Below are positions 1,892 through 14,695 of a DNA stretch of 14,695 nucleotides, one piece after another. The notes beneath the pieces were generated by a model. It was not told where the DNA came from. It saw nothing but the letters and a program-made list of their open reading frames with translations, and did not search any database. Made by a program: the position numbers and the translations under genes. This DNA comes from Clostridia bacterium (lineage in GTDB: Bacteria; Bacillota; Clostridia; CAKSNL01; HGM11501). Each line of letters begins with the position of its first letter. Within the stretch, counting starts at the first letter, position 1. Location: NCBI GenBank assembly GCA_045545475.1, contig JAZQAZ010000050.1, forward strand, positions 1-14,695, read 5' to 3'.

Positions 1892-3163
1892 TTGAGTAAG
1901 AAAATTTCTGTTGCAATACTTGGTTCCGGTTCGCGCGGATGTGCGTTTGGCCAGGAAGTGCAAAACGATAACGAGCGTTATGAACTTTCGGCTGTTTGTG
2001 ATATAAATCCCAAACAGCTTGCAAAAGCAAAAAAGCTTTTTAGTCTTTCTGACGAACAAATATTTTCAGATGAGGAAAGCTTTTTTTCGGAAAAAAGGGC
2101 TGATTTAATGGTTATTGCCACACATGACAAGTACCATGCTCGCCAATGTGTTCGAGCCATGAAAATGGGATATGATGTGTTTATGGAAAAACCAATCAGC
2201 GATTCAAGGGAAGAAATCTATGATTTGCTTAAAACACAAAAAGAAACAGGTAAAGTCGTTATGGTTTGCCATGAGCTCAGATATGGTCCTGCGTTTGATA
2301 AATTACACGACCTGATTATCGACAATGTTATCGGGGAGGTGGTAGCAATCGATGCCATGGAACGTGTAACATATTGGCATCAGGCTCAAGCCTATGTCAG
2401 AATACAATCGGAGGTTAATGATGTTGCACATCCGACGATACTTGCAAAATGCAGTCATGATTTGGATTTGCTGCACTATTATGCAGGGGCGGAATGCGAT
2501 ACTGTATCATCTGTCGGAGATCTGAAATTTTTCAGAATTCAAAATGCGCCGAAGGATTCAACGGAGCGGTGTTTGGAGTGCCCTCATGTCGACACCTGTG
2601 CTTTCAGTGCAAAAAGGATATATATAGACAGATGGAAGGAAAGAGGATGTCCTGAATTTGTTTGGCCGTTCAATAAGGTAACCTTAAAAATTCCTACGGA
2701 TGAGCAGGCTCTTTATGAGGGGCTGCGTAATACTTGTTTTGGTAAATGCGTTTTCCGATGCGGTGTGGAAAGCAATAAACACGTTGTTGATCATCAGTTG
2801 GTACAAATGATGTTTAAAAACGGTGTTGCGGCTACTTTGAAAATGGTGTTTGCCGGCGAGTCCGGAAGACGAATTAACATTTTCGGTACACACGGCGAGT
2901 TGCTTTTGGATGAGAGAAATGGAACTATTGAAGTATATCGCTACGGAGAGAAGAAAGAGGTTATAGAATTTAAAACCTTGATGGAGAACGGTCATAGTCA
3001 CGGAGGCGGAGATGTCCTAATAATAAAAGATTTGTATTCTGTTTTGAACGGGGGTGGGGAAGGCAGAACCTCGCTCATGGACTCTATAGAGGCTCATTTA
3101 ATGGGAATCAGTGCAGAAGAATCAAGATTAAATGGCGGAATTACGGTGAAGGTTCATGAATGA
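1892..3163 (+). CDS. Gfo/Idh/MocA-family NAD(P)-dependent oxidoreductase (423 aa)
   Basis: Rossmann motif ILGSGSRG, EKPI motif, KCSHDLD catalytic segment, C-terminal HGGGD. TTG start at 1892 preferred because AAGGAGG is at 1878-1884. Confidence 0.92.
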   Translation: MSKKISVAILGSGSRGCAFGQEVQNDNERYELSAVCDINPKQLAKAKKLFSLSDEQIFSDEESFFSEKRADLMVIATHDKYHARQCVRAMKMGYDVFMEKPISDSREEIYDLLKTQKETGKVVMVCHELRYGPAFDKLHDLIIDNVIGEVVAIDAMERVTYWHQAQAYVRIQSEVNDVAHPTILAKCSHDLDLLHYYAGAECDTVSSVGDLKFFRIQNAPKDSTERCLECPHVDTCAFSAKRIYIDRWKERGCPEFVWPFNKVTLKIPTDEQALYEGLRNTCFGKCVFRCGVESNKHVVDHQLVQMMFKNGVAATLKMVFAGESGRRINIFGTHGELLLDERNGTIEVYRYGEKKEVIEFKTLMENGHSHGGGDVLIIKDLYSVLNGGGEGRTSLMDSIEAHLMGISAEESRLNGGITVKVHE

Positions 3164-4349
3164 TTGCATTATTTTAAAAAATTGTAGGATCATAGGAGAC
3201 AGATCTATCCGGGAAGACAGCAGTATTTTGATTCAAAATGGTATTATTGCCGATATTAGTGATATTGCCGGGTTTGAAGCAAGTGAGTATGCAAAAGTAT
3301 ATGATATGAAGGGTAATTATGTCAGCGCAGGGTTTGTGGATATCCATACGCACGGTGGAGGCGGTGCTGATTTTATGGACGCGACAGACGATGCGTTCGA
3401 CACCGCTTTAGGATATCAGCTTGAAAACGGAGTTACGGGGGTGGTTGCAACCTCTCTGACTGCGGCATATGAGGATATATGTTGTTTTATGGACAAGGCA
3501 AGAGAATATATGGAGGTTCCGCACACCAAGAAGTCAAAGCTTCTTGGTGTGCATTTGGAAGGACCGTTTATATCTGTGAAAGGCTGCGGCGCACAAAATC
3601 CCAAATATCTTATGAATCCGAATAAAGATTCTTACAGCTTTATTATTAAAAACAGAGATATAATCAAAATAGTTACAATTGCGCCGGAATTGGACACGGA
3701 CGGGAGCATGACGCGGGAGCTTACTGAAAACGGCATTTTGGTGTCGGGAGGTCATGATGACGGTGCATATCCGGAATTTGTTCCTGCATTTAAGTCGGGT
3801 TTGAAACACATGACGCATATATATTGTGCAATGTCGGGTTTTGGAACAAAAGCAGGAGTCAGAGAAATAGGACTTAGGGAATATGGGCTTATGACAGATA
3901 ACGTCACCTGTGAAATTATTGCGGATAATATTCATATAACTCCCGAAATGGCAAGGTTTATTTTAAAGTATAAGGGGGCTGATAATGTTGCGGTGGTATC
4001 GGACTCGCTGCGATGCGCCGGTATGCCGGCAGACGGACGCTTATATAATCTGGGGTCAAAATACGACAGTGCATCGTTGAAAGTAAAGGTTTCCGACGGG
4101 ATTGCAATGCTTGCTGATGGCAGTAAGTTTGCCGGAAGCATAACAAGTGTGCATAAAATGGTGAAAAATTTGATAAATGCCGGTATTCCTGTTGTGGATG
4201 CGTTTAAGACGGGAACGTCGGTGCCGGCACGTATTATAGGTGAAAAGAAGATAGGCAGCGTTAAAAAAGGTTTTGCTGCTGATCTTTGTGAGCTTAATGA
4301 AAATTTCGATATTGTTTCGGTCTTTTTGGACGGAAAGAAAGTAAAATAA
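3156..4349 (+). CDS. nagA: N-acetylglucosamine-6-phosphate deacetylase family amidohydrolase
   Basis: GFVDIHTHGGGG, GVHLEGPF, VTIAPE, THIYCAM, IADNIH, VSDS, FAGS motifs. Overlaps the upstream gene by 8 nt. Confidence 0.9.
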   Translation: MNDCIILKNCRIIGDRSIREDSSILIQNGIIADISDIAGFEASEYAKVYDMKGNYVSAGFVDIHTHGGGGADFMDATDDAFDTALGYQLENGVTGVVATSLTAAYEDICCFMDKAREYMEVPHTKKSKLLGVHLEGPFISVKGCGAQNPKYLMNPNKDSYSFIIKNRDIIKIVTIAPELDTDGSMTRELTENGILVSGGHDDGAYPEFVPAFKSGLKHMTHIYCAMSGFGTKAGVREIGLREYGLMTDNVTCEIIADNIHITPEMARFILKYKGADNVAVVSDSLRCAGMPADGRLYNLGSKYDSASLKVKVSDGIAMLADGSKFAGSITSVHKMVKNLINAGIPVVDAFKTGTSVPARIIGEKKIGSVKKGFAADLCELNENFDIVSVFLDGKKVK

Positions 4350-4364
4350 ATTTTATGAAGGGAA

Positions 4365-5162
4365 ATGAACATTATGGAACACAATAAAATTAAGCTTAGA
4401 GTTTTAGAAAATGATGATGCAGTCAATTTGGATATGGCGCTTGATATGTTGGCGGAAATTATGAAAAATAATGAAAGGGGAAAGCGAACAGTATTTATTG
4501 TACCGGTTGGACCTACAAAGCAGTATTCGATTTTAGCGGCGATGGTAAATAAGCTTAATATTTCATTAAAAAACGTATGGTTTTTCAATATGGACGAGTA
4601 TCTCATATCTCCGACAGAAGCAATTTCGTCCGAACATTTTCTGAGCTTTAAAAAGCGCATGAATGACGAATTTTATGCGCGGGTTGATGAGGCGCTTATA
4701 ATGCCGAAGGAACAAAGGCTGTTTCCGATTCCGGGAAGAGAAAAGGAATATGATGAGCTTTTAAAATCTCTCGGTGGTGCGGATGTGTGCTATGGGGGAC
4801 TCGGCATTAACGGTCATATTGCGTTTAATGAGGCGGCAGAAAAGGATGATCCGATAACCTGTGAGGAATTTGCAAATCTCAGCACACGCGTGCTCCCGGT
4901 CAGCCGTGAAACAATAGCCATAAACGGAGCCGCATATCTACATGGAGATATTATGGCAATGCCGAAATGGTGTATCACAATAGGCATGAAGCAGATAATG
5001 GAATCAAAAAGAATTTATTTATCGACAGGTGCGGCATGGCATCCGGGAATATTAAAGCATGTACTTAACGACAAACCGCAGCCGCAGATACCGTCAACCA
5101 TTTTGCAAAAACACGGGAACGTATTATTCTGCACAAATAAAAGTATTGCGGAACTGATTTAA
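4365..5162 (+). CDS. Glucosamine/galactosamine-6-phosphate isomerase (NagB-like) family protein, atypical subgroup
   Basis: FFNMDEY, GGLGINGHIAFNE, ITIGMKQI, PSTILQKH motifs. Has PVGPT where canonical NagB has ATGST/PTGST. Confidence 0.85.
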   Translation: MNIMEHNKIKLRVLENDDAVNLDMALDMLAEIMKNNERGKRTVFIVPVGPTKQYSILAAMVNKLNISLKNVWFFNMDEYLISPTEAISSEHFLSFKKRMNDEFYARVDEALIMPKEQRLFPIPGREKEYDELLKSLGGADVCYGGLGINGHIAFNEAAEKDDPITCEEFANLSTRVLPVSRETIAINGAAYLHGDIMAMPKWCITIGMKQIMESKRIYLSTGAAWHPGILKHVLNDKPQPQIPSTILQKHGNVLFCTNKSIAELI

Positions 5163-5263: not shown

Positions 5264-5299
5264 GTTATTGAAGAGCGGATGTTGGAAATGGGGATTTGT

Positions 5300-5653
5300 A
5301 TGAAGTGTTTTCAAATCGATTTAAATGAGCTTCCTAAGGTTGCGTTGTGGGGAAAAAAAGACAGAACAATGCTTCCGGCACGCTTTGTGGCAGAAAGCCT
5401 CGGTGCTACTGTTACCTGGGATGAAGCAAGCAGAAAGGTTATTATTGCTAAAAACAGCCTTTTAATTGAAATTACCATTGACTCAGATACTGCTTTGGTA
5501 AACGGCAGAATTACGCCCTTGGATTCTCCGGCGTTTATAGAAAATGACAGAACATATATGCCTCTTCGTTTTATAGTTGAAAATCTCGGAGCGACTGTTA
5601 TCTGGGATAAGTCGGAGCAGAAAGTGACCATTACTGTTAAGTTTCCTGTTTGA
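5300..5653 (+). CDS. Copper amine oxidase N-terminal (stalk) domain protein, probably a fusion remnant (117 aa)
   Basis: Two internal repeats typical of this domain: DRTMLPARFVAESLGATVTWD and DRTYMPLRFIVENLGATVIWD. No signal peptide or other domain. ATG at 5300 follows GGGG; 5279 is an alternative start. Confidence 0.75.
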   Translation: MKCFQIDLNELPKVALWGKKDRTMLPARFVAESLGATVTWDEASRKVIIAKNSLLIEITIDSDTALVNGRITPLDSPAFIENDRTYMPLRFIVENLGATVIWDKSEQKVTITVKFPV

Positions 5654-5844: not shown

Positions 5845-6900
5845 ATGAAAAAAGTGCGTCTTGATGAACTTAAGGCTTTCTCCGTAAAGGCACTCGTTAA
5901 AGTGGGAGTAAGTGAAGAAAATGCAGAAATTATAGCCGATGTTTTAATGACAACTGATACTTTCGGTGTTTTAACACACGGGACAAAAAATCTGGGGCAG
6001 TATATAGATAAAATGAAGGCGGGCGGATTAGATGCTGAAGCCGAGCCATCAATAGTGAGAGAAGGACCTGCCTGGGCAATCGTAAACGGAAACAAGGCGG
6101 CAGGTATGGTTTCCGGATACAAGGCGATGAAGATGGCTATCCAGAAAGCTAAAAAAGTCGGTATTGCATATGTGGGAGTTAAAAACAGCTGTCACTTCGG
6201 TGCAGCAGGCTTCTATGCAAATCTGGCGGCAAAGGAAGGACTCATAGGCATATCTATGAGTAATGCTGATCCGGTTATTGCAGTTCCCGGAGGAAGCAAA
6301 AAAGCAATCGGTACTAATCCCTTTTCTTTTGCAGCACCGACTGGCGACGGAAAGAGTGTATTTTTAGATATTGCATTAAGTAATGTTGCGGCACTTAAGG
6401 TCATAATGGCGCAGGAGAAGAAACAGGAAATTCCCGACACCTGGCTGGTTGATGAAGAGGGCGTTCCTACGAAGGATGCTTACAAATTCCCGAAAAATGC
6501 AAGTCTTCAGCCTATGGGAGCACACAAGGGCTACGGCCTTGCGGTGCTGGTCGAAATTCTTGCTTCGGTAATAACCGGTGCGGGTATGCTTTCTGAGATA
6601 GCGAGCTGGAATCTGGATCTTGCATCCACCAATAATGCGGGACACGCATTTATTGCAGTTGATGTAGCTCAGATGATTGGCACAGATGAGTTTAATGCAA
6701 GAATGAAACAGGTCTCAGACGAGCTTAAAAACGGCCCAAAGGCAAAGGGTGCGTCAAGAATATTTATGCCCGGTGAAATGGAATGGGAAAAGAGAGATAA
6801 AGCTCTTGCTTCGGGTGAAATTGAAATCACCGATGCTATGGTGGCATCCCTTACAAAGCTTTCTTCCGATACAGGCGTGGAAATTAACATTTACGAATAA
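5845..6900 (+). CDS. Ldh_2-family (AllD/YiaK/ComC-like) 2-hydroxyacid dehydrogenase
   Basis: GVLTHG, NSCHFGAAG, IGTNPF, LDIALS, PMGAHKGYGL, MPGE motifs; GGAGG RBS. Confidence 0.92.
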   Translation: MKKVRLDELKAFSVKALVKVGVSEENAEIIADVLMTTDTFGVLTHGTKNLGQYIDKMKAGGLDAEAEPSIVREGPAWAIVNGNKAAGMVSGYKAMKMAIQKAKKVGIAYVGVKNSCHFGAAGFYANLAAKEGLIGISMSNADPVIAVPGGSKKAIGTNPFSFAAPTGDGKSVFLDIALSNVAALKVIMAQEKKQEIPDTWLVDEEGVPTKDAYKFPKNASLQPMGAHKGYGLAVLVEILASVITGAGMLSEIASWNLDLASTNNAGHAFIAVDVAQMIGTDEFNARMKQVSDELKNGPKAKGASRIFMPGEMEWEKRDKALASGEIEITDAMVASLTKLSSDTGVEINIYE

Positions 6901-6930: not shown

Positions 6931-7584
6931 ATGGATAAAACAATGTACGGCATAATCAAAACAACAGCAATCTGCCCCATTATGGTGGCACCCGATCCCG
7001 ATTTTGCAGCTGATGCGGCAAAGGCAATTGCAGAGGGCGGTCTTCCCGTTTGTGAAGTTCTTCTTCACAGAGACGAGCATTCTGTTACAAGAATAAAGAA
7101 CATCGCTAAAAATGCACCCGAGGTAATTGTCGGTGCAGGTACTGTTATATCTTTAAGAGATGCCCAGGAGGCATTAGATGCCGGTGCAAAATTCTGTGTA
7201 GCTCCCGGCTTTGTTCCCGAGGTTGTTGAATTTTGCTTAAAGAACAACTTATCCATCCTTCCCGGATGCACAACAGCTTCCGAAATTTCAATGGCACTTA
7301 ACTACGGAATAAACATATTAAAGTTCTTCCCCGTATATCAGATGGGCGGAGTAGACACCCTTTCCCAGTACTATTACGGCCCCTTCGGTAAGGTTGAATG
7401 GGTTGTAACCGGCGGTCTTAACGGCAAGAACTATTTAGACCTCATCAAGTTCAACAGCGTGCTTGCGGCAGGCGGCGACTGGATGTTTGCCGAGAATAAT
7501 GCAATCAACGACAAAAACTACGATGCAATCGTTGAAAATATGAGAAGAACAATAAAGGATTCTCTCGCTGCAAGAGCGAAATAA
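6931..7584 (+). CDS. eda: KDPG/KHG aldolase (Eda) family, divergent
   Basis: VGAGTV, LPGCTTASE, Schiff-base Lys in LKFFP (K131), TGG and catalytic E42. GGDW replaces the usual GGSW. Confidence 0.85.
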   Translation: MDKTMYGIIKTTAICPIMVAPDPDFAADAAKAIAEGGLPVCEVLLHRDEHSVTRIKNIAKNAPEVIVGAGTVISLRDAQEALDAGAKFCVAPGFVPEVVEFCLKNNLSILPGCTTASEISMALNYGINILKFFPVYQMGGVDTLSQYYYGPFGKVEWVVTGGLNGKNYLDLIKFNSVLAAGGDWMFAENNAINDKNYDAIVENMRRTIKDSLAARAK

Positions 7585-7600
7585 GAAAGTGGGGCTTTTT

Positions 7601-8377
7601 ATGAGTTGCTCATTTGATTTTAAGGGTAAAACCGTTCTGATAACAGGTGCCGAGCGGGGAATTGGTCTTGAAATTGCAAAGGGCTTTGCAAAAAGAGGTG
7701 CAAATATTGTTATCGCAGGCATTATGGATGAGGAATTTCCCAATGCTGAAAAGGAAATAACAGCCCTTGGTGCAGAATGCTTTTGCATCCACACCGATGT
7801 GGCGGATGAAGAATCTGTTATAAATGCAGTTAGTAGTGCCTGGGACAAGTTTACAAAAATTGATATTCTTGTAAATAATGCAGGCATCAACAAGCTTGCA
7901 CCGGCAGAGGAAATGCCTCTTTCTACCTGGCAGAGAATTATGGATGTAAATTTAACGGGTACATTTTTAATGTGCCGTGAGGTGGGAAAAAGGATGCTTT
8001 CTGCGGGCGGCGGAAACATAGTTAACGTTGCCTCTATGTCGGGCCTTATCGTAAACCCCCTTCCGCAGACACAGTGTGCATATAACAGCTCCAAGGCGGG
8101 CGTTATTATGCTTACAAAGGTGCTTGCCAACGAATGGGCAGAGCGAGGCATAAGAGTAAACGCCATTGCTCCGGGCTTTACGGAAACACCCCTTACTGCA
8201 AAGAGACTTTCCGTGCCCGACGATCCTGCGGTTAAAAAATGGATTGGCGGAACACCTATGGGACGCGTGGCTCAGCCTTCCGAAATGGTGGGCCTTGTAT
8301 TATACTTTGCAAGCGACTTATCTACCTTTACAACAGGAACCTGCGTGCCCGTTGACGGCGGATATACAGTATTATAA
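7601..8377 (+). CDS. Short-chain dehydrogenase/reductase, polyol dehydrogenase/ketose reductase-like (258 aa)
   Basis: TGAERGIG, VNNAG, ASMSG, YNSSK, RVNAIAPG, VDGGY. ATG at 7601 preferred over GTG at 7589 because GGGG lies at 7591-7594. Confidence 0.92.
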   Translation: MSCSFDFKGKTVLITGAERGIGLEIAKGFAKRGANIVIAGIMDEEFPNAEKEITALGAECFCIHTDVADEESVINAVSSAWDKFTKIDILVNNAGINKLAPAEEMPLSTWQRIMDVNLTGTFLMCREVGKRMLSAGGGNIVNVASMSGLIVNPLPQTQCAYNSSKAGVIMLTKVLANEWAERGIRVNAIAPGFTETPLTAKRLSVPDDPAVKKWIGGTPMGRVAQPSEMVGLVLYFASDLSTFTTGTCVPVDGGYTVL

Positions 8378-8388
8378 GGAGAATGAAA

Positions 8389-9237
8389 ATGAAAAGCGTA
8401 AAAGATACTTTCAAAATATATAACGGTGTTGAAATTCCCTGCATGGGACTCGGCACCTGGCAGTCCCCCGACGAAACGGCGAAAAATGCGGTGCTTGCCG
8501 CACTTTCCCACGACTATCGCCTTATTGATACAGCTGCGGCTTACGGCAACGAAAAGGGTGTAGGCGAGGGAATAAAGGCAAGCGGACTTAAGAGAGAAGA
8601 AATTTTTGTTACAAGCAAGCTCCGCAACGCGGACCATGGCTACAAGGCGACGCTTGAGGCTTTTAATCTCACTATGGAAAAGCTTGACCTTGAGTATTTA
8701 GACCTTTATCTTATTCACTGGCCCAACCCCATTCAGTACAGAACACACTGGGAAGAGGCAACGGCCGGAACCTGGAAGGCTTTTGAGGAGCTTTACGAAA
8801 AGGGAAAAATCAAGGCAATCGGCATAAGCAACTTCCTTCCTCATCACATTGAAACACTTATGAAAACCGCAAAAATAAAGCCTATGGTAAATCAGCTTAA
8901 ACTATGCCCCGGCGTAACCCAGGACGAAACCGTTGACTATTGCAAAAAGCAGGGTATTGTGGTTGAAGCATACAGCCCCTTCGGAACTGGTATGATATTC
9001 GGCAACGAGGGTATGAAAAAGCTTTCTGCAAAATACGGAAAAACCGTTGGTCAGCTTTGTCTTCGCTGGTGCTTAGATAAGGAGTTTGTTTCCCTTCCCA
9101 AGTCGGCAAATCCCATGAGAATAAGAGAAAATGCAGAAATCTTTGACTTTGAGCTTTCAAAGGAAGACATTGACTTTATATCAAATCTTAAGGGAGTTTG
9201 CGGAGAAGCTCCCGACCCCGATAATATAATGTTCTAA
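8389..9237 (+). CDS. Aldo/keto reductase, 2,5-diketo-D-gluconate-reductase-like
   Basis: GLGTW and the catalytic tetrad in IDTA, YGNE, TSKL and IHWP, plus IGISNF and PKS. AGGAG (8377-8381) fits the ATG at 8389 better than the one at 8383. Confidence 0.93.
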   Translation: MKSVKDTFKIYNGVEIPCMGLGTWQSPDETAKNAVLAALSHDYRLIDTAAAYGNEKGVGEGIKASGLKREEIFVTSKLRNADHGYKATLEAFNLTMEKLDLEYLDLYLIHWPNPIQYRTHWEEATAGTWKAFEELYEKGKIKAIGISNFLPHHIETLMKTAKIKPMVNQLKLCPGVTQDETVDYCKKQGIVVEAYSPFGTGMIFGNEGMKKLSAKYGKTVGQLCLRWCLDKEFVSLPKSANPMRIRENAEIFDFELSKEDIDFISNLKGVCGEAPDPDNIMF

Positions 9238-9248
9238 GAGTTGATTTT

Positions 9249-10712
9249 ATGAGAATTAAAAACAAGGATGCTTTATCCTCCCACGGAAATATCGAGGGAA
9301 GAAAAATTGTAAGTGAGCTTCTTGATGCAGGGCTTGACTCCATCGACCCTTACTTAAGGGTAAAAAAGCTTATGGAGGTAAAAGAAGGTAAATTAATCTT
9401 TCATACCGAGGGCTTTGAAATGAAGGAGGATCCCCATTCGGGTGCACTTTCCTACAATCTTTCTGATTTTGACAGAATATTTGTAATCGGTGCGGCAAAG
9501 GGAATTCAGAGAGCCGCCCTTGCAATAGAAGAGGTGTTGGGAGATTATCTTACCGAAGGTCACGTCATAGGAAAGCACGGGGAAGATGTTATTTGCAAAA
9601 AAATCGGCGTGACATTGGCAGGACACCCCGTTCCCGACGAATACTGCATTGAAGGCTGCAGAAAAATTGAAGAAATGCTTTCTGATGTTACGGAAAAAGA
9701 CCTTGTCTTAACCGTTTTCGGCTCGGGCTGCGGCTCCCTTTTCACCTATCCTGCTGAGGGGATAACTATGGAGGATATTTCAAGGTTTACCCATATGATG
9801 CAGATTGAAAAGGGCGTTCCCACAAGTGACTTAAATCAGATAAGAACCCATATTGACCGTTTTAAGGGCGGAAGAATAACAAGGATGATAAAGAAGGCCA
9901 CCATAGTAAATATGGTAACGGCGGACCCATCCAAAATGTCAACCCCGGTTTTAAGGGTAAACTACTTTGAAATGCTCTGTCATAACACCTTTTTCCCTAC
10001 GGTTGCAACGGCATCAACCTATAAAGACTGCCTTGACATCATAAAAAAGTGGGATGCCTGGGATGAAACCCCGGAGTCTATAAAAAACCACCTTTTAGCG
10101 GGAGACAGTCATAACGAAAATATGTCGGTGGATGAATACGAAAGCTTTAACGCAAGATTTTTTGGTCTTGTTTTCAAGGATTCCACCATCTATCCGGCGG
10201 TAAGGGAAAAGGCAAAGGAGATGGGACTTCCTTGCATAATGCTTTCAGAGTATATGGAAGCGGAGGCAAGGGAAGCAGGCTTTGTGGACGGAAATTTAGC
10301 CCTTTGCTGTGAAAGGCTGGGCGAGCCCTTCCGTGGCCCCATTGTACTTATGTCATCAGGCGAAAATGTGGTAACCGTCGGCAAGGAAAGCGGCATCGGC
10401 GGAAGAAATCAGGAATATGCCATCGGCGCGGCAATGAAAATTGCAGGAAGCAAAAAGGTTGTAATCGGCGCTGTTGATACGGACGGTACCGACGGCCCCG
10501 GGGGATTTTCATATCCTGGTGCGCCTGAATGTTTATCCGGTGCCGTGGTTGACGGCTATACCTTGGAAGAAGCGAAAGAAAAAGGAATAAATCTCTGGGA
10601 TGCGCTTAAAACCCACGGAACAAGCGAGCCCTTGTGGAGACTTGATTCCGGCGTATGGGCGGAAAAGAGCATTTCGGCTCTTGATCTCAGAATAATTTTG
10701 ATTGGAGAATAA
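9249..10712 (+). CDS. Class II (MOFRL/DUF4147) glycerate-2-kinase-like protein, divergent
   Basis: VIGAAKG, AGHPVPDE, RFKGG, GGRNQE and DTDGTDGP motifs; several other motifs are altered. Confidence 0.88.
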   Translation: MRIKNKDALSSHGNIEGRKIVSELLDAGLDSIDPYLRVKKLMEVKEGKLIFHTEGFEMKEDPHSGALSYNLSDFDRIFVIGAAKGIQRAALAIEEVLGDYLTEGHVIGKHGEDVICKKIGVTLAGHPVPDEYCIEGCRKIEEMLSDVTEKDLVLTVFGSGCGSLFTYPAEGITMEDISRFTHMMQIEKGVPTSDLNQIRTHIDRFKGGRITRMIKKATIVNMVTADPSKMSTPVLRVNYFEMLCHNTFFPTVATASTYKDCLDIIKKWDAWDETPESIKNHLLAGDSHNENMSVDEYESFNARFFGLVFKDSTIYPAVREKAKEMGLPCIMLSEYMEAEAREAGFVDGNLALCCERLGEPFRGPIVLMSSGENVVTVGKESGIGGRNQEYAIGAAMKIAGSKKVVIGAVDTDGTDGPGGFSYPGAPECLSGAVVDGYTLEEAKEKGINLWDALKTHGTSEPLWRLDSGVWAEKSISALDLRIILIGE

Positions 10713-10714: not shown

Positions 10715-12016
10715 ATGTACGGTACAATTATTAAATCTGTAAGGGCACACCAGGTTTATACAAACCGTGGAAAGCCCGGTGTTGAAGTAATAGTAACCAC
10801 AGAAAACGGAAGCGAAGGAAGGGCAATGTGCACCTCGGGCGTATCGATCGGTACCCACGAGGTTGACTTTACCTTTGACGGCGGCACAAAGTTTGGCGGC
10901 AAAGGCGTAACAGGTGCGGCTAAAAGGGTTGAAGAGGTAATCGCTCCCGTAATTATCGGAATGGATTCAGCCCGTCAGGCAGAGGTTGATGCGGCAATCC
11001 TCGGTATTTGCCCCGATGCAAAAATCCGCCTTGGCGGAAATGCGGTTGCGGCAACAAGTGCGGCTGTGCTTAAAGCAGGTGCAGCATCGCTCGGCATTCC
11101 CTTATACCGTCATATCGGCGGTGCAGGTGCAATGTATCTTCCCGTTCCCGGCGTTGCGATGGCGGCAGGGGATGAGCGCTACGGCGGAGGAATCACCACC
11201 CCTGGCGGAAAACCCACAATGTCAATTATGGCATACGGCTTTGATAAGTTTTCCGATGCATCTTATGCATGCTGGGAAATTCACACACGCTGGGCGGAAA
11301 AAATGAAAAAGCTCTTTGGCGGTCTTCCAAATATCCGCGACTTTATCTCCATTCCTGCGGGAATTTTCAAAAGCGACAAGGAAATCTGGGAGGAAATGCT
11401 GAAAACCGTTATTGAAGCGGGATACGAAGGCAAAATCGGCTTCCAGATGGACGTTGCGACGGATACATATCACAACAAAGAAGACGATAAGTACTACGGT
11501 CTTTTCGATAAGGAGCCCAAGACCAAGGAACAGCTTTACGACTTCTATATGCAGATTATAAAGGACTATCCCTTTGTTATAATCGAAGATCCCTTTAATG
11601 AGGACGACTATGATACAACTGCCGCATTTACAAAGGAAAGCGGAATTCAGATAGTAGGGGACGACCTTTTTACCACCAACCCCAAAAGAGTGGCTCACGG
11701 AATAAAGAAGGGCGCGGCAAACACCGTTCTTCTCAAGGTTAATCAGGTGGGCTCCATTTCCGAGGCTCTTGAAATGATACAATATGCCTATAAGTTCGGT
11801 TACGGAATTATGCCTTCCGACAGCCGTGGCGAGGGCGAAACAATTGCAGACTATGCGGTGGGTATAAATGCAGGCTCAATCCGTGAAAGTGCCATAGGCG
11901 CAAGAGGAAACCGCTTCCTTGAAATTGAGGAAGAGCTTGGGGCATCTGCAAAATTCATCGGTGCACGCGGCCTTAAGGGCGAAAGAAACCTTCTGCGTGC
12001 CGACGGATTATTATAA
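10715..12016 (+). CDS. Enolase-like protein with remodelled active site
   Basis: Colinear with enolase (SGVSIGTHE, GKGV, LGGNA, PLYRHIGG, LPVP, MDVA, IEDP, QIVGDDLFTTN, LLKVNQVG, IADYAVG) but lacks NGGxH, QEF, GDEGG, SHRSGE and QIKTG. Confidence 0.88.
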   Translation: MYGTIIKSVRAHQVYTNRGKPGVEVIVTTENGSEGRAMCTSGVSIGTHEVDFTFDGGTKFGGKGVTGAAKRVEEVIAPVIIGMDSARQAEVDAAILGICPDAKIRLGGNAVAATSAAVLKAGAASLGIPLYRHIGGAGAMYLPVPGVAMAAGDERYGGGITTPGGKPTMSIMAYGFDKFSDASYACWEIHTRWAEKMKKLFGGLPNIRDFISIPAGIFKSDKEIWEEMLKTVIEAGYEGKIGFQMDVATDTYHNKEDDKYYGLFDKEPKTKEQLYDFYMQIIKDYPFVIIEDPFNEDDYDTTAAFTKESGIQIVGDDLFTTNPKRVAHGIKKGAANTVLLKVNQVGSISEALEMIQYAYKFGYGIMPSDSRGEGETIADYAVGINAGSIRESAIGARGNRFLEIEEELGASAKFIGARGLKGERNLLRADGLL

Positions 12017-12027: not shown

Positions 12028-13458
12028 ATGTTTAAACAGTATATAAACGGAAAACTGGTTGACGGTAATGGCAGGGAAATGCCTGTATATAACCCTGCAA
12101 CGGGAAAGGTAATTGACTCTGTGGGCTGCGCAGATGCATCTCAGACAAAGGAAGCGCTCATCGCAGCTGCGGAAGCTTTTAAAACCTGGTCTAAAACAAG
12201 CGTAAATGAAAGAGCAGCGTGGCTTTACAAGCTTAAGGAAGCCTGCACGGCTGAAAGAGATTATTTAATCGAGCTTGTAGCTTCAGAATCCGGAAGACCG
12301 TATGCAGCTGCCTGCGGCGATGTTGACTGGCTTCTTACAAGCCTTTCCTTCTATGCCGAGGAAGCAAAGAGAATTGAAGGCGAAGTAATTCCTCCCTTAA
12401 ACGTGGGCGGAAAGCTTAACTATCAGATAATCACAAAACAGCCGGTGGGTGTAACCGTTGGTCACCTTGCCTGGAACTATCCTTTAGGTAATGCCAGCAT
12501 AAAGCTTGCTCCCGCCATAGCATCAGGCTGTACCTGCATCATAAAGCCTTCCTCCGAAACACCCCTTGCAACACTTTATGTGGGCGTTATCGCAGAAAAG
12601 ATAGGCTTCCCGAAGGGGGTATTAAACATTCTTTCAGGTCCCTCTTCCGAGGTTGCAAAAACCCTTAACGAAAGCACCATTCCGAGACTTATTTCATTAA
12701 TCGGATCCTATGAAACGGGACTTAAGCTGATGGAGCAGGGCGTAACAAGCTTAAAGAAATATTCTCTTGAGCTTGGCGGAAACGCACCTGTTGTGGTTAT
12801 GCCCGATGCTGACCTTGACGAAACAGCGGCAAACATCGTTGCAAAAAAGGTTGGCTTTGCAGGACAGACCTGCGTTAACTATAACAGAATTTACATCCAC
12901 GAAAGCATTTATGATGTAATGTGCGAAAAGGTTAAAAGTGAGCTTTCAAAGGTTAAACTCGGCTCCTGGAAGGACGAGGGTTATATAATGGGTCCCGTAA
13001 TAAACAACGAGGCAAGGGACAGAATGCTTTCCCTTATTGAGGATGCAAAGGAAAAAGGCGCAAAGCTTGTTATGGGCGGAGAAGTTCCGGAAGAATTTTC
13101 CGAGGGAAGCTTTATAACACCTGCGCTTCTTATTGATGTAACTGACGATATGCGCGTTTCAACAGAGGAAATCTTCGGCCCCATCATTCCTCTTCAGCCC
13201 TTTAAGACCTTGGATGAGGCAATTAAAAAGAGCAACAATACAATCTTTGGCTTGTCCGCTTATTTCTTCGGACACAATGCAAAGGAAATGAGCAGATATT
13301 TTGAAAACGTTACAGCAGGCGAATTTTTCGTAAACGGCGGTATCGGAAGCGAATTTTCACCCCATTCAGGTGCAAAGCAGTCGGGTATCGGATGCGACAA
13401 GTCCAAGCATTCACTAGAGGAATACTACGATATCAAGTTCCTGTCTATGATACCGTAA
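12028..13458 (+). CDS. NAD(P)-dependent aldehyde dehydrogenase (GabD/SSADH-like)
   Basis: AWNYP, IKPSSETP, catalytic Glu in LELGGNAP, catalytic Cys in GQTCV, EEIFGP; AAGGAGG RBS. Confidence 0.94.
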   Translation: MFKQYINGKLVDGNGREMPVYNPATGKVIDSVGCADASQTKEALIAAAEAFKTWSKTSVNERAAWLYKLKEACTAERDYLIELVASESGRPYAAACGDVDWLLTSLSFYAEEAKRIEGEVIPPLNVGGKLNYQIITKQPVGVTVGHLAWNYPLGNASIKLAPAIASGCTCIIKPSSETPLATLYVGVIAEKIGFPKGVLNILSGPSSEVAKTLNESTIPRLISLIGSYETGLKLMEQGVTSLKKYSLELGGNAPVVVMPDADLDETAANIVAKKVGFAGQTCVNYNRIYIHESIYDVMCEKVKSELSKVKLGSWKDEGYIMGPVINNEARDRMLSLIEDAKEKGAKLVMGGEVPEEFSEGSFITPALLIDVTDDMRVSTEEIFGPIIPLQPFKTLDEAIKKSNNTIFGLSAYFFGHNAKEMSRYFENVTAGEFFVNGGIGSEFSPHSGAKQSGIGCDKSKHSLEEYYDIKFLSMIP

Positions 13459-13473: not shown

Positions 13474-14454
13474 ATGAGCGAAAAAAAGTATGATCTGATA
13501 GGCTTCGGCGATCCCTTTTTAGACCTTGTGCTGAAAATAGATAAGCTCCCCGAAACAAATACCAACTGTCGCATAAATAAATACGGCTTTCAGGGTGGCG
13601 GAAACGTACCCACAGCCTGCGTCGCATCTGCAAGACTCGGTGCAAAAACGGCGTTAATCGGTTGTGTGGGGGATGATTTATTCGGAAAAGTGGGACTTTC
13701 CGACCTTCAGTATAACAATGTTGACACATCAAAAATGAGTGTACAGAAAGGGAAAAAAAGCAATTTTTCCATCTGTGTGACAGAAACAGCCGTAAACGGT
13801 AAGGAATTTATCAGCACTCCCGGTGACTTTGAGGAAATAAAGACAGGCGAGCTTGATGAAGAATTCTTCAGGTCCACTCGCATTATGCACGTGGCATTAA
13901 TTACCGAAGCTGTGGCAAAGGCCTGCGATATGGTTCATTCCGCAGGCGGAAAAATAAGCGTAGATGCCAATTACTACCGTCCCTATACCTACGACTATTA
14001 CGATAAAATCGACATTTTCATAGGCTCCGAAATGTACTACAATGCATTTTGCGAAGATAAAAAATTAAATCCCGAAAACTTTAAGGAAAATATGGAGCTT
14101 TTAAAAAGCTACGGTCCTGAAATCGTAATATTCACCTTCGGACCTGACGGTTGCAAGGGCGTTTACGAGGATAAATATTTCGATATTCCGGCAATAGATG
14201 TAGATGTGGTTGACACCACCGGTGCGGGTGATGTTTTCCACGGTGCCTTTGATGTATTCTATCTTAAGGGCTTCGATGTGGAAAAAGCGGCACTTTATGC
14301 ATCCGGCGTATCTGCCATAAAATGCACACGCTCCGGAGGAAGAAGCGGAATTCCCACACTCCCGGTGCTTGAAAAATTTATTAAAACCGGTGAAATTGAC
14401 TATACGGAAATAGACGAGCGCGTTGCTCATTATGATAAAGGAATTACGTTATAG
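13474..14454 (+). CDS. PfkB/ribokinase-family carbohydrate kinase, YihV-like C-terminus
   Basis: GGGN...ARLGA...IGCVGDD, DTTGAGDVFHGAF and ASGVSAIKCTRSGGRSGIP; GGAGG RBS. Confidence 0.92.
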   Translation: MSEKKYDLIGFGDPFLDLVLKIDKLPETNTNCRINKYGFQGGGNVPTACVASARLGAKTALIGCVGDDLFGKVGLSDLQYNNVDTSKMSVQKGKKSNFSICVTETAVNGKEFISTPGDFEEIKTGELDEEFFRSTRIMHVALITEAVAKACDMVHSAGGKISVDANYYRPYTYDYYDKIDIFIGSEMYYNAFCEDKKLNPENFKENMELLKSYGPEIVIFTFGPDGCKGVYEDKYFDIPAIDVDVVDTTGAGDVFHGAFDVFYLKGFDVEKAALYASGVSAIKCTRSGGRSGIPTLPVLEKFIKTGEIDYTEIDERVAHYDKGITL

Positions 14455-14464: not shown

Positions 14465-14695
14465 ATGCTTGATTACAATGTAAAAATAGGACTTGTTCCC
14501 TTAAGACGTGACTGTACACCCCGTCCCGGTATCTTTAACTGGGAGGTTGCAGAGGAGAGAGGAAGACAGACTGTTGCCTACATCAAGGAGCATTATGCGA
14601 CAGAGCATATAAGCTTTGTTGACCTTAAGGGTGTTATCGATGTTGAAACACTCTGGTCTGAAAACGATGTTGAAAAGGTGGCAGAACACTTTAAG
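14465..14695 (+). CDS. Probable L-fucose/L-arabinose isomerase family protein (partial, runs off the window)
   Basis: Not in the ORF track. AGGAGG (14453-14458), ATG at 14465, then 77 open codons MLDYNVKIGLVPLRRD...SFVDLKGVIDVETLWSENDVEKVAEHFK. The KIGxxPxRR...FVD pattern resembles firmicute fucose-isomerase-like N-termini (from memory). Confidence 0.65.
   Translation, partial: MLDYNVKIGLVPLRRDCTPRPGIFNWEVAEERGRQTVAYIKEHYATEHISFVDLKGVIDVETLWSENDVEKVAEHFK

What the first reader, a model, noticed from the sequence alone, without database searches (positions are those of the whole stretch)
10715..12016. Enolase paralog keeps its metal ligands and catalytic base but loses the acid-side residues
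Manual alignment with canonical enolase (yeast numbering in brackets). Retained: Mg ligands D246, E291, D316 [D246/E295/D320] and base K341 [K345]. Changed: the NGGxH His [H159] is R155; the QEF Glu [E168] is Thr; the GDEGG loop with the general acid [E211] becomes PNIRDF; SHRSGE becomes SDSRGE (11816-11833: His to Asp, Arg/Ser swapped); the QIKTG Lys [K396] is R390; the following helix is shortened. The frame is intact and the changes cluster at the active site, which points to a new function rather than decay. C2 proton abstraction looks preserved and water elimination does not. Pipelines would likely mislabel it eno.
Basis: partly seen in the sequence, partly recalled or inferred. Interest (0 to 1): 0.8.

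Follow-up and report, generated by a model that had tools for sequence, protein, structure and literature searches.

The report
Kinase-coupled enolase variant with rebuilt pocket
This second "enolase" gene is a conserved, working relative of the glycolytic enzyme whose water-removing residues are replaced by positively charged ones; it is fused into a sugar-breakdown operon beside its own kinase, so it probably makes phosphoenolpyruvate from an unusual acid, perhaps sulfolactate.

Summary
ORF 10715-12016 (433 aa) has an intact enolase fold. It keeps the three metal ligands and the catalytic Lys, but lacks His159, Gln167, Glu168, Glu211, His373 and the Arg374-Ser375 order of canonical enolase.

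It is not decay. dN/dS is 0.03-0.075, a canonical eno lies elsewhere in the genome, and the core changes are invariant in relatives down to 47% identity. These relatives form a separate, well-supported clade. Only Phe210, Arg208 and Asp369 are lineage-specific.

The pocket loses two Glu and gains Arg155 and an inserted Lys166. The gene is translationally coupled to a long glycerate-2-kinase-like gene. It sits in a conserved operon with an aldehyde dehydrogenase, a PfkB kinase, a class II aldolase, a FucI-family isomerase and DUF4867. That gene set resembles the sulfo-EMP2 set for sulfoquinovose.

My best reading is "phosphorylate, then eliminate": a PEP-forming lyase acting on a 3-substituted 2-phosphoglycerate analogue, most plausibly 2-phospho-3-sulfolactate. 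The substrate is not shown. Signature residues of known sulfofructose kinase and sulfolactaldehyde dehydrogenase are absent, and no sulfoquinovosidase was found.

This scan has met the same kinase plus variant-enolase pair before on other DNA. I found nothing about it in print.

The parts
10715..12016 (+). Variant enolase-family gene (ENOp, 433 aa), member of the 'Arg155 / Gly-Gly-Lys166-Pro167 / Ser370-Arg371 / Arg390' clade
11177..11218 (+). Codons Arg155 to Thr168. This is the mobile active-site loop carrying His159->Arg, Ala->Tyr156, the 4-residue insertion with Lys166, Gln167->Pro and Glu168->Thr
   Evidence: pLDDT dips to 70-76 in this loop
11336..11344 (+). Codons Arg208-Asp209-Phe210, in place of Gly-Asp-Glu211 (the general acid of enolase)
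   Evidence: This position varies in distant clade members but is never Glu
11735..11737 (+). Lys341 codon, equivalent to the catalytic base Lys345 of yeast enolase
   Evidence: kept in 16 of 16 metagenome relatives
11816..11833 (+). SDSRGE in place of SHRSGE: His373->Asp and Arg374/Ser375 swapped to Ser370/Arg371
9249..10712 (+). Long (487 aa) DUF4147+MOFRL glycerate-2-kinase-like gene. Its stop lies 2 nt before the ENOp ATG, and a GGAG box for ENOp sits at 10704-10707 inside its 3' end
   Evidence: Directly upstream of ENOp in 41 of 45 ortholog loci with enough upstream DNA
12028..13458 (+). Aldehyde dehydrogenase of the succinate-semialdehyde-dehydrogenase-like group
   Evidence: Directly downstream of ENOp in 42 of 42 loci. 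Lacks the Arg/Arg (or His/Asn) pair proposed for sulfolactaldehyde dehydrogenases
13474..14454 (+). PfkB-family sugar kinase. Its nearest solved structure is E. coli sulfofructose kinase YihV
   Evidence: The YihV Lys27/Asn109/Arg138 triad is not conserved
14465..14695 (+). 5' end (77 codons) of a 463-aa FucI/SftI-family sugar isomerase, cut by the contig end
   Evidence: The full gene is seen in L003:13812-15203
5845..6900 (+). Ldh_2-family 2-hydroxyacid dehydrogenase, first gene of the conserved operon. Nearest relatives are archaeal malate dehydrogenase and L-sulfolactate dehydrogenase ComC
   Evidence: Present in 40 of 51 ortholog loci
6931..7584 (+). KDPG/KHG-type class I aldolase
   Evidence: Present in 42 of 51 loci
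7589..8377 (+). Short-chain dehydrogenase (gluconate-5-dehydrogenase/KduD-like)
   Evidence: Present in 28 of 51 loci
8383..9237 (+). Aldo-keto reductase (DkgA-like)
   Evidence: Present in 43 of 51 loci. AKRs also recur next to distant clade members (3 of 78 neighbours)

Best explanation
ENOp is an active, non-glycolytic member of the enolase family that works as the second half of a two-step 'phosphorylate, then eliminate' module.

Proposed steps:
1. The adjacent long glycerate-2-kinase-like enzyme phosphorylates the 2-hydroxyl of a three-carbon 2-hydroxy acid. The operon makes that acid itself: FucI-family isomerase plus DUF4867, then PfkB kinase, then class II aldolase, giving DHAP plus an aldehyde, which the aldehyde dehydrogenase oxidises to the acid.
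2. ENOp binds the carboxylate on its retained Mg site (Asp246, Glu291, Asp316).
3. It removes the C2 proton with Lys341.
4. It expels from C3 a group that needs no Glu211/Glu168/His373 acid machinery and fits a more cationic pocket (Arg155, Lys166). The product is phosphoenolpyruvate.

The most likely substrate is 2-phospho-3-sulfolactate, with sulfite leaving. That is the reverse of the ComA reaction on a different fold, and it would extend a sulfo-EMP2-like sulfoquinovose pathway so that the sulfolactate end product is also used. The Ldh_2 and AKR/SDR enzymes would interconvert the sulfolactate enantiomers through sulfopyruvate.

Shown: fold, retained and changed residues, conservation, purifying selection, the separate clade, kinase coupling, and operon content.

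Inferred: that the kinase product is the ENOp substrate, that PEP is the product, and the identity of the leaving group.

My odds: about 0.5 for 'PEP-forming lyase on a 3-substituted 2-phospho acid with a good or anionic leaving group', and about 0.3 for sulfolactate specifically.
For: Active enzyme, not glycolytic enolase:
- Metal ligands and Lys341 are kept, while Glu168, Glu211 and His373 are lost in every clade member examined: 69 of 69 rows and 16 of 16.
- dN/dS is 0.033-0.075.
- The model has pLDDT 93.2 and TM 0.88 to enolase 2pa6.
- A canonical eno is present elsewhere in the genome.
- The clade of 19 rows splits from the other 98 enolase rows with SH-like support 100 (FastTree).

Pocket charge: two Glu are lost, His159 becomes Arg155, and a Lys166 is inserted. 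All of these are invariant.

Kinase coupling:
- The kinase stop is 2 nt before the ENOp ATG, with a GGAG box inside the kinase gene.
- The kinase is directly upstream in 41 of 45 ortholog loci. One exception (L045) has it 241 nt upstream. In the other three it lies elsewhere in the same genome (3 of 3).
- A kinase homolog is on the held stretch in 9 of 15 metagenome loci at 47-56% identity.
- A natural 908-aa fusion of a MOFRL kinase and a variant enolase exists in a sister clade (P0140).

Source of the acid:
- The aldehyde dehydrogenase is directly downstream in 42 of 42 loci.
- PfkB, the FucI-family isomerase, the class II aldolase and DUF4867 follow.
- A distant member (L091, 53% identity) again sits beside two isomerase+PfkB pairs.

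Sulfo-sugar pointers:
- DUF4867 + PF02952-type isomerase + PF01116 aldolase + GabD-like dehydrogenase is the published sulfo-EMP2 gene set (PMC10665668, passages seen).
- The DUF4867 protein matches SqvB (9GYY) at 150.1 bits.
- The best solved relative of the PfkB kinase is sulfofructose kinase, at 98 bits against 77.4 for the next hit.
- The aldolase lacks both distal-phosphate cationic residues, as reported for SqiA (PMC10665668).
- Ldh_2 is nearest to archaeal malate dehydrogenase and ComC, which act on 2-oxo acids carrying a distal anion.

Racemisation and organic-anion import recur next to distant members:
- LarA-family nickel-pincer isomerases.
- TRAP, TTT and Liv-type transporters.
Against: There is no biochemical evidence.

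Tests of sulfo-sugar signatures failed or gave nothing:
- The YihV sulfonate triad Lys27/Asn109/Arg138 is Asn or Ser / Ser or Val / hydrophobic in the 32 PfkB rows (Lys27 is kept in 2 of 32).
- The proposed sulfonate-binding pair of sulfolactaldehyde dehydrogenases (Arg171/Arg289, or His/Asn) is Ile, Val or Leu / Gly or Thr in 28 of 28 orthologs (PMC10599462, passages).
- The only strong GH31 in this genome, and the two GH31 genes in flanks of related loci, are not YihQ-like.
- The SftI match is weak (107.7 bits against a 700 cut-off). Three other paralogs in the genome match the SftI model, only one of them as well (103.9, 54 and 33 bits).
- No AsrC-type sulfite reductase scores above its cut-off in the genome.
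- No TauE-like gene was found in any held locus with a low-sensitivity search.

Flanking glycosidases in single loci (GH2, GH4, GH28) point to plant glycans rather than sulfolipid.

Four conserved operon genes (Ldh_2, KDPG-type aldolase, SDR, AKR) are only loosely explained.

Elimination of sulfite to give PEP is the reverse of the ComA reaction and is probably uphill by itself (my inference). It would have to be pulled by pyruvate kinase and by removal of sulfite.

Lys166 could be a general acid, which would allow dehydration.
Confidence: 0.5

Rival explanations
1. ENOp is still a dehydratase. It removes water from a 2-phospho-hydroxy acid (2-phospho-L-glycerate, 2-phospho-D-glycerate in a different binding mode, or a longer 2-phospho-aldonate), using the newly conserved Lys166 (or Tyr156) as the general acid. 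The operon would then be a fructolysis-like route: ketose-1-phosphate -> DHAP + glyceraldehyde -> glycerate -> 2-phosphoglycerate -> PEP.
For: - The operon logic (isomerase, PfkB kinase, aldolase without a distal-phosphate site, aldehyde dehydrogenase, glycerate-2-kinase-like gene, enolase-like gene) fits a neutral hexose equally well.
- The aldehyde dehydrogenase and PfkB kinase lack the published sulfonate-binding residues.
- The kinase's only solved relatives are glycerate 2-kinase-type proteins (1x3l, 2b8n).
- Lys acts as general acid in other enolase-superfamily dehydratases (recalled).
- Racemase-type neighbours would also fit D/L-glycerate.
Against: - Every genome already has a canonical enolase for 2-phospho-D-glycerate.
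- Loss of both Glu and the His, with a gain of cationic residues, is invariant over a deep clade. That argues for a different C3 substituent, not a re-solved dehydration.
- With the base kept at Lys341, the L-enantiomer would need the phosphate and CH2OH positions swapped (inference).
Confidence: 0.25
2. The chemistry is the same (C2 deprotonation, then loss of an anionic leaving group to give PEP), but the leaving group is not sulfite. An example is sulfate from 2-phospho-3-O-sulfoglycerate, derived from 6-O-sulfated hexoses or GlcNAc-6-sulfate of host or dietary glycans.
For: - The pocket is cationic and lacks an acid.
- NagA (255.4 bits, above its 225.65 cut-off) and NagB-like genes lie just upstream here. 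Weaker homologs recur in 9-10 of 51 ortholog loci.
- Sulfate is a better leaving group than sulfite, so the step would be downhill (inference).
- Sulfonate-specific signatures are absent.
Against: - I know of no 6-sulfated-sugar enzymes with which to compare.
- NagA/NagB-like genes are absent from most loci and are common in gut bacteria anyway.
- Distant clade members sit beside importers of small organic anions, and free 3-sulfoglycerate is not a known metabolite (recalled).
Confidence: 0.1
3. ENOp is not a lyase. It uses the retained enolisation machinery for racemisation, epimerisation or decarboxylation of an acid. Alternatively it is a non-catalytic partner.
For: - Only the proton-abstraction half of the active site is conserved.
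- A sub-clade of 10 of the 19 clade rows has lost Lys341 and/or metal ligands. It occurs in tandem with a Lys-retaining copy (L051, L097), so non-catalytic relatives do exist.
Against: - ENOp itself keeps all metal ligands and the Lys under strong purifying selection.
- Tight coupling to an ATP-dependent kinase makes most sense if the phosphate ends up in a high-energy product such as PEP (inference).
- Separate racemase-type genes are already present beside clade members.
Confidence: 0.1
4. It is an ordinary redundant or decaying enolase copy.
For: It has the enolase fold and matches the enolase families. The Atlas names similar clusters 'putative phosphopyruvate hydratase'.
Against: - It scores below the eno equivalog cut-off.
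- Five canonical catalytic or binding residues are replaced in a fixed way across phyla.
- dN/dS is about 0.05.
- The operon context is conserved.
Confidence: 0.03

Closest known systems
Canonical enolase / phosphopyruvate hydratase (EC 4.2.1.11; TIGR01060; Pfam PF03952 + PF00113), for example M. jannaschii 2pa6 and yeast enolase 1
   Same: - Same two-domain fold (TM 0.85-0.89).
- Same three carboxylate metal ligands and the same catalytic Lys.
- The probable product is the same (PEP; inferred).
   Different: - 33-40% identity only.
- It scores below the equivalog cut-off and forms a separate clade.
- His159, Gln167, Glu168, Glu211, His373 and Lys396 are replaced, and Arg374/Ser375 are swapped.
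- It has a 4-residue insertion with Lys166 and a 5-residue deletion after Arg390.
- It is always paired with a dedicated kinase and is not the housekeeping copy.
Phosphosulfolactate synthase ComA (coenzyme M biosynthesis; PEP + sulfite -> (2R)-phospho-3-sulfolactate)
   Same: The proposed ENOp reaction is the same reaction run backwards. This is a statement of what it may work like, from recalled knowledge, with the reference listed in PMC12421959.
   Different: It is not homologous. ENOp matches only enolase-type families in Pfam. The direction would be catabolic and the context is a sugar operon. Nothing here tests the reaction.
(R)-sulfolactate sulfo-lyase SuyAB, with the SlcC/ComC two-dehydrogenase racemase
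   Same: It would do the same job: release sulfite from sulfolactate and recover the C3 skeleton. It would have the same need for enantiomer interconversion, and an Ldh_2/ComC-like dehydrogenase is in the operon. The 2026 review lists SuyAB as the sulfolactate-cleaving enzyme (PMC12890257, passages seen).
   Different: SuyAB needs no ATP and gives pyruvate. The proposed route spends one ATP and gives PEP. I made no search for a SuyAB homolog.
Sulfo-EMP2 sulfoquinovose pathway of Firmicutes (SqvB DUF4867, SqvD PF02952 isomerase, SqiK PF00365 kinase, SqiA PF01116 aldolase, SlaB dehydrogenase)
   Same: - DUF4867, a FucI/SftI-family isomerase, a class II aldolase lacking the distal-phosphate Arg, and a GabD-like aldehyde dehydrogenase lie in one operon.
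- Hybrid clusters that use a PfkB kinase are described (PMC10665668).
   Different: - The kinase is PfkB, not PF00365, and lacks the YihV triad.
- The dehydrogenase lacks the proposed sulfonate pair.
- The isomerase match is generic.
- No sulfoquinovosidase was found.
- Six extra conserved genes are present, including the kinase/ENOp pair.
Glycerate 2-kinase (MOFRL class) plus enolase: the lower branch of the non-phosphorylative Entner-Doudoroff, serine-cycle and tartrate routes
   Same: The gene pair and the order of reactions are the same: aldehyde -> acid -> 2-phospho acid -> PEP.
   Different: - The kinase is unusually long (487 aa) and far below the glycerate-2-kinase model cut-offs (87.9 against 550 bits).
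- The enolase partner lacks the dehydration residues.

Membership tests
Canonical enolase (TIGR01060 equivalog, EC 4.2.1.11) | Enolase_N + Enolase_C domain architecture and fold | tested here: met
   Pfam 111.5 and 186.4 bits. AlphaFold pLDDT 93.2 and TM 0.88 to 2pa6.
Canonical enolase (TIGR01060 equivalog, EC 4.2.1.11) | Score at or above the curated equivalog cut-off (300 bits) | tested here: not met
   278.7 bits. The genome's real eno scores 635.4.
Canonical enolase (TIGR01060 equivalog, EC 4.2.1.11) | Metal ligands Asp246/Glu295/Asp320 and catalytic base Lys345 | tested here: met
   Asp246, Glu291, Asp316 and Lys341. Invariant in the clade.
Canonical enolase (TIGR01060 equivalog, EC 4.2.1.11) | General acid Glu211 with Glu168 and His373 around the C3 hydroxyl | tested here: not met
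   Phe210, Thr168 and Asp369 here. These positions are never Glu/Glu/His in 16 of 16 distant relatives.
Canonical enolase (TIGR01060 equivalog, EC 4.2.1.11) | Substrate-binding His159, Gln167, Arg374-Ser375, Lys396 | tested here: not met
   Arg155, Pro167, Ser370-Arg371 and Arg390.
Canonical enolase (TIGR01060 equivalog, EC 4.2.1.11) | Converts 2-phospho-D-glycerate to PEP; complements an eno mutant | not testable with these tools
   This needs an enzyme assay or genetics.
Kinase-coupled 'Arg/Pro' variant-enolase clade (undescribed; defined here) | Signature Arg155-Tyr156 ... Gly-Gly-Lys166-Pro167-Thr/Ser168 ... Ser370-Arg371 ... Arg390, with metal ligands and Lys341 kept | tested here: met
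   Arg155, Lys166, Pro167, Ser370, Arg371 and Arg390 in 69 of 69 clade rows; the flanking signature residues in 96-100%. Tyr156 is His or Trp in 2 of the 16. 16 of 16 metagenome relatives. The clade branch has SH-like support 100.
Kinase-coupled 'Arg/Pro' variant-enolase clade (undescribed; defined here) | Adjacent DUF4147/MOFRL kinase gene | tested here: met
   The gap is 2 nt here. 41 of 45 ortholog loci have it directly upstream. 3 of 3 exceptions have it elsewhere in the genome. 9 of 15 distant loci have it on the held stretch.
Sulfofructose kinase YihV type (for the operon's PfkB kinase) | Lys27-Asn109-Arg138 sulfonate triad (PMC8006165, passages) | tested here: not met
   Asn or Ser / Ser or Val / Leu, Phe and others in 32 rows, at about 25-30% identity, so the alignment is not secure. 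YihV is nevertheless the best solved relative.
Sulfolactaldehyde dehydrogenase SlaB/GabD type (for the operon's aldehyde dehydrogenase) | Arg171/Arg289 (or His/Asn) proposed sulfonate-binding pair (PMC10599462, passages) | tested here: not met
   Ile, Val or Leu at Asn+8 and Gly or Thr at Cys-6 in 28 of 28 orthologs.
Class II sulfofructose-1-phosphate aldolase SqiA type (for the operon's aldolase, seen in L003 and on own-genome contig C8) | Partner-protomer Arg that binds the 6-phosphate is replaced (Ala257 in SqiA; PMC10665668, passages) | tested here: inconclusive
   The Asp-Pro-Arg motif of GatY reads Ala-Pro-Leu or similar, and the Thr+3 cationic residue is Cys, Ala or Ile in the cluster aldolases. 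This is consistent with SqiA, but it is also expected for any ketose-1-phosphate aldolase. No SqiA sequence was available to align.
ComA phosphosulfolactate synthase family | Homology to the ComA family | tested here: not met
   The Pfam scan of ENOp returns only enolase-type families. The resemblance is of the proposed reaction only.

The most novel reading that the evidence does not exclude
ENOp is a 2-phospho-3-sulfolactate sulfite-lyase that forms PEP, and its partner is a sulfolactate 2-kinase. Together they would be a previously unknown, ATP-neutral, PEP-conserving desulfonation route. It would let fermenting gut and rumen Clostridia (and, with other importers, bacteria of several phyla) use all six carbons of sulfoquinovose, or free sulfolactate or cysteate, and release sulfite into the gut sulfur cycle. 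The reaction would be the ComA reaction run backwards on an enolase scaffold.
Probability: 0.3. Interest if true: 0.9.

Novelty: new variant of a known kind. Interest (0 to 1): 0.7.

Why it matters
Enolase is treated as a single-function family within the enolase superfamily. Here a deep, widespread, strongly conserved branch has replaced the dehydration half of the active site, and it is hard-wired to its own kinase. Some automatic resources label it as plain enolase.

If it makes PEP from sulfolactate or another 3-substituted acid, several things follow:
- It adds a new C-S (or C-O-S) cleavage mechanism to sulfonate biology.
- It changes carbon and energy budgets for sulfoquinovose use in herbivore and human guts.
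- It identifies a new source of sulfite and sulfide precursors.

Even if the substrate is different, the pair is a clean target for function discovery. It has two soluble enzymes, a simple coupled assay, and many genomic contexts to guide the choice of substrates.

Tried and rejected
1. Sulfoquinovosidase as a marker.
- The genome's GH31 scores 228.5 bits on the YihQ model (cut-off 553), no better than on the xylosidase and MalA models.
- Two GH31 genes in flanks of related loci rank YihQ near the bottom of their solved relatives.
- A six-frame search for the YihQ model in five cluster-bearing genomes gave 0 of 5 over the cut-off. The E. coli control also failed to pass the cut-off, so that test is uninformative.

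2. The upstream GFO/IDH/MocA gene as an NAD-dependent sulfoquinovosidase (an idea from memory). It matches every solved relative only weakly: 44.2 bits at best, and 28.9 bits for 8qc2. There is no support.

3. Sulfite handling. No AsrC-type hit scores above the cut-off (best 106 against 324 bits). A TauE gene exists, but on another contig. No TauE-like gene appeared in 141 held loci when I searched with the genome's own TauE, which is a low-sensitivity search. A family search on the metagenome loci was not possible.

4. The SftI match as evidence for sulfoquinovose. I rejected it as generic, because three other paralogs in the genome and two control genomes also match the SftI model.

5. DUF4867 as a sulfo marker. 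The family is also common in ordinary aldose/ketose clusters (PMC11968277, section 6 read), so it is suggestive only.

6. An IolC/IolJ-like reading (keto-uronate or 5-keto-aldonate -> DHAP + tartronate semialdehyde). I considered it because PfkB also matches IolC weakly (93.9 bits). I set it aside because tartronate has no beta leaving group for an enolase-type step.

7. Order-level and family-level distribution. Only 14 genomes are held for the family, which is too few for co-occurrence statistics.

8. The maximum-likelihood tree with the default method did not finish, so I used FastTree.

9. The promoter and terminator scan inside the operon gave no more hits than shuffled sequence.

10. Literature searches for a sulfolactate kinase, a phosphosulfolactate lyase or an enolase-like lyase found nothing relevant.
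Full report
**What is there.** The ORF at 10715-12016 (+) is open and encodes 433 residues. It carries Enolase_N and Enolase_C domains. It scores 278.7 bits on the NCBIfam enolase equivalog, under the 300-bit cut-off. Its best solved relative is M. jannaschii enolase 2pa6 (E 2.5e-75). An AlphaFold model built on a 50-row alignment has mean pLDDT 93.2 and pTM 0.93. Confidence dips only in three active-site loops, at residues 41-50, 151-170 and 201-210. The model superposes on solved enolases at TM 0.85-0.89.

**Checking the residues.** I used three alignments: with this genome's own canonical enolase, the HMMER alignment to 2pa6, and a 109-row alignment of the protein, the canonical copy and 107 full-length representatives. 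All agree.
- Ser41, Asp246, Glu291, Asp316 and Lys341 correspond to Ser39, the three metal ligands and the base Lys345 of yeast enolase. That numbering is recalled, and I mapped it through motifs.
- His159 is Arg155 and Gln167-Glu168 are Pro167-Thr168.
- Gly-Asp-Glu211 is Arg208-Asp209-Phe210.
- SHRSGE is SDSRGE, at exactly 11816-11833.
- Lys396 is Arg390, followed by a 5-residue deletion.
- There is also a 4-residue insertion that places Gly164-Gly165-Lys166 before Pro167.

**Not decay, and not the only enolase.**
- The genome (2.74 Mb, 50 contigs, 95% complete) has a canonical eno on contig C29, scoring 635.4 bits.
- Against orthologs in other genomes, dN/dS is 0.033-0.075 in the 19 of 43 pairs where dS was usable. 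In 22 pairs dS was saturated, and 2 had dS above 3.
- I took 69 clade rows at 44% identity or more. Six rows below that were dropped: four canonical enolases, the second copy of L051, and P0126. In those 69 rows Arg155, Lys166, Pro167, Ser370, Arg371 and Arg390 are in 100%; Tyr156, Gly164-Gly165, Thr168 and Phe210 in 96-100%; and Arg208 in 91%.
- In 16 metagenome relatives at 47-81% identity the core signature and all metal ligands plus Lys341 are kept in 16 of 16 (Tyr156 is His or Trp in two). Positions 208, 210 and 369 vary, but are never Gly-Glu or His as in real enolase. Ser41 is Ala in 13 of 16.
- In a FastTree of 117 rows, the 19 rows with Arg at the His159 column and Pro at the Gln167 column form one group, split from the other 98 rows with SH-like support 100. 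FastTree support is local only, and the midpoint root is for drawing.
- Inside that group, 10 rows have lost Lys341 and/or a metal ligand. One such copy sits in tandem behind a Lys-retaining copy in each of L051 and L097.

**Charge of the pocket.** Across the clade two glutamates are gone, His159 is Arg, and an inserted Lys166 is invariant. Arg374/Ser375 are swapped and Lys396 is Arg, both of which are charge-neutral. No acidic or His residue is conserved on the side where enolase protonates the leaving hydroxide. This follows directly from the alignments. That these residues line the C3 side rests on recalled knowledge of yeast enolase, because I could not inspect coordinates.

**Genomic context.** The upstream gene (9249-10712) is a 487-aa DUF4147+MOFRL protein.
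- It is related to glycerate 2-kinases (1x3l at 184.8 bits, 2b8n), but scores far below their model cut-offs (87.9 against 550 bits).
- Its stop codon is 2 nt before the ENOp ATG, and a GGAG box lies inside its 3' end.

Among the 61 loci from species genomes, 51 carry an ENOp ortholog at 70% identity or more.
- The kinase is directly upstream in 41 of the 45 with at least 1.6 kb of upstream DNA.
- One exception (L045) has it 241 nt away. The other three have a 65-67% identical kinase elsewhere in the same genome (3 of 3).
- The aldehyde dehydrogenase is directly downstream in 42 of 42.
- Counts over all 51 loci, many of them truncated: aldehyde dehydrogenase 46, kinase 45, AKR 43, KDPG-type aldolase 42, Ldh_2 40, PfkB 40, FucI/SftI-family isomerase 37, class II aldolase 36, SDR 28, DUF4867 15.

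The window ends inside the isomerase gene. The near-identical locus L003 shows isomerase, class II aldolase and DUF4867 following. In this genome the aldolase lies at the start of contig C8 and DUF4867 on C33.

The carriers are gut and rumen Clostridia MAGs of several families, plus one Victivallales MAG at 73%. Within the window's own family the gene is in 5 of 14 genomes. It is therefore an accessory, probably mobile, trait.

**Distant members.**
- In the Spirochaetaceae MAG locus L049 and the Clostridia MAG locus L054 (56-58% identity), the pair is joined to a Liv-type ABC importer and a nickel-pincer (LarA-family, group 22) isomerase; L054 also carries L-fucose isomerase and L049 a PfkB kinase.
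- Among 15 metagenome loci at 47-56% identity, a kinase homolog is on the held stretch in 9. The six without are contigs of 2-10 kb.
- L091 again has two isomerase+PfkB pairs next to the pair.
- Of 78 neighbouring ORFs scanned, the recurrent families are AKR (3), Liv-type ABC parts, PfkB (2) and Zn-dependent alcohol dehydrogenases (2). Single TRAP (DctP/DctM, directly upstream in L097), TTT (TctA), SNF and LarA-family genes also appear. Only the 25 commonest of 91 families were shown.
- A 908-aa natural fusion of a MOFRL kinase and a variant enolase (P0140) exists in a sister variant clade, which has Glu-Asp at 167-168 and has lost Glu211 and His373.

These facts support a fixed kinase-to-enolase-like two-step module that is fed either by a sugar pathway or by an organic-anion importer, often with a 2-hydroxy-acid racemising function nearby.

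**What the substrate might be.** The operon reads as: aldose -> ketose (isomerase, DUF4867) -> ketose-1-phosphate (PfkB) -> DHAP + C3 aldehyde (class II aldolase) -> C3 2-hydroxy acid (aldehyde dehydrogenase) -> 2-phospho acid (kinase) -> ENOp. Of the C3 acids such a route can give, only those with a leaving group on C3 suit an enolase-type step. Those are glycerate and 3-substituted lactates.

Several points make sulfolactate the best single guess:
- The loss of the acid machinery.
- The gain of positive charge.
- The ComC/malate-dehydrogenase-like Ldh_2 (257.7 bits on the L-sulfolactate dehydrogenase model, and 209.8 bits to ComC 2x06).
- The resemblance of the gene set to the published sulfo-EMP2 set (PMC10665668, passages read).

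Supporting details:
- The DUF4867 protein matches SqvB at 150.1 bits.
- The PfkB kinase's best solved relative is sulfofructose kinase 7ag6 (98 bits, against 77.4 for ribokinase).
- The aldolase lacks both cationic residues that hold the distal phosphate in bisphosphate aldolases, as described for SqiA.

I wrote this idea down before consulting earlier notes of the scan. Those notes show that other agents met the same pair on other DNA and also guessed sulfolactate. They are not independent evidence.

**Results against the sulfo reading.**
- The YihV Lys27/Asn109/Arg138 sulfonate triad (PMC8006165, passages) is not conserved in 32 PfkB rows.
- The Arg/Arg or His/Asn pair proposed for sulfolactaldehyde dehydrogenases (PMC10599462, passages) is Ile, Val or Leu and Gly or Thr in 28 of 28 orthologs.
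- No YihQ-like sulfoquinovosidase was found in the genome or in flanks. The genome-wide model search in five other carriers was uninformative because the E. coli control failed the cut-off.
- The SftI hit is generic.
- No sulfite reductase scores above its cut-off, and no TauE gene lies near any locus.
- DUF4867 is common in non-sulfo ketose clusters (PMC11968277, section 6).
- Single loci carry GH2, GH4 or GH28 genes, bona fide LarA, and a GlcD-like oxidase.
- Flank families over 110 representatives of non-core ORF clusters are mostly AraC regulators, CUT1 ABC parts and GFO/IDH/MocA oxidoreductases.
- The roles of the KDPG-type aldolase, SDR and AKR are unexplained.
- Elimination of sulfite to give PEP is the ComA reaction in reverse and is likely unfavourable alone (inference).
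- Lys166 might be a general acid, which keeps a dehydratase reading alive.

**Literature.** Full-text searches found nothing describing this branch or such a route. The search terms covered enolase paralogs with glycerate kinase, phosphosulfolactate/sulfolactate with enolase, sulfolactate kinase, phosphosulfolactate lyase, and enolase-like lyase. The passages returned for sulfolactate and SuyAB in a January 2026 review of sulfoquinovose catabolism name only SuyAB for sulfolactate cleavage. The words enolase and phosphosulfolactate do not occur in it (PMC12890257).

**Verdict.** The gene is a functional, non-glycolytic enolase-family enzyme belonging to an undescribed, kinase-coupled clade. The mechanism I commit to is C2 deprotonation by Lys341 on the retained Mg site, followed by loss of a good, probably anionic, leaving group from C3 of the kinase's product, giving PEP (about 0.5). 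The substrate would be 2-phospho-3-sulfolactate (about 0.3). The main rival is a re-engineered dehydratase acting on a phosphoglycerate-like acid (about 0.25).

Noticed in passing
window 1868-5162 (+): A separate, translationally coupled trio lies upstream: a 431-aa GFO/IDH/MocA oxidoreductase, NagA (255.4 bits, above its cut-off) and a weak NagB-like gene. The same trio at 66-74% identity precedes the operon in L022. Weaker NagA/NagB-like homologs occur in 9-10 of 51 ortholog loci. A link to the operon's substrate (an amino sugar with a 6-anion?) is possible but untested.
   Followed up: partly
window 5279-5653 (+): A small ORF (124 aa) consists only of a copper-amine-oxidase N-terminal-type domain. 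It sits between the NagA trio and the operon. Similar domains occur in 3 flank clusters of related loci.
   Followed up: no
L051:3417-4697 and L097:9305-10444: A second enolase-like gene lies in tandem behind the Lys-retaining copy. It lacks the catalytic Lys and/or a metal ligand. Such copies form a sub-clade (10 of the 19 clade rows in the tree). They may be non-catalytic partner subunits.
   Followed up: partly
protein P0140 (908 aa, from the representative library): A natural fusion of a MOFRL glycerate-kinase-like domain (residues 22-469) and a variant enolase (481-893). It belongs to a different variant type (Glu-Asp at 167-168, with Glu211 and His373 lost). Kinase coupling is therefore not limited to this clade.
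   Followed up: partly
own genome contigs C50 end, C12 start, C8 start, C33 start: The first 77 codons of the isomerase gene occur identically at the end of C50 and at the start of C12. Its last 46 codons occur on both C8 (followed by the class II aldolase) and C33 (followed by DUF4867). This is an assembly fork, caused either by two copies or by strain variants of the downstream part of the operon.
   Followed up: partly
L003:18297-20277: Just beyond the operon in the near-identical locus lie a DNA methylase, an M78-peptidase-like gene and a Cro/C1-type HTH gene, which is mobile-element-like content. The gene is also patchy within the family (5 of 14 genomes), and a Victivallales MAG has a 73% identical copy. 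Together these suggest horizontal spread.
   Followed up: no
L030:2328-5135: In one Lachnospiraceae MAG the rearranged operon is preceded by a GlcD-like FAD oxidase and a bona fide lactate racemase LarA (599.5 bits, cut-off 460). GH4 and xylulokinase-like genes are inserted in it.
   Followed up: no
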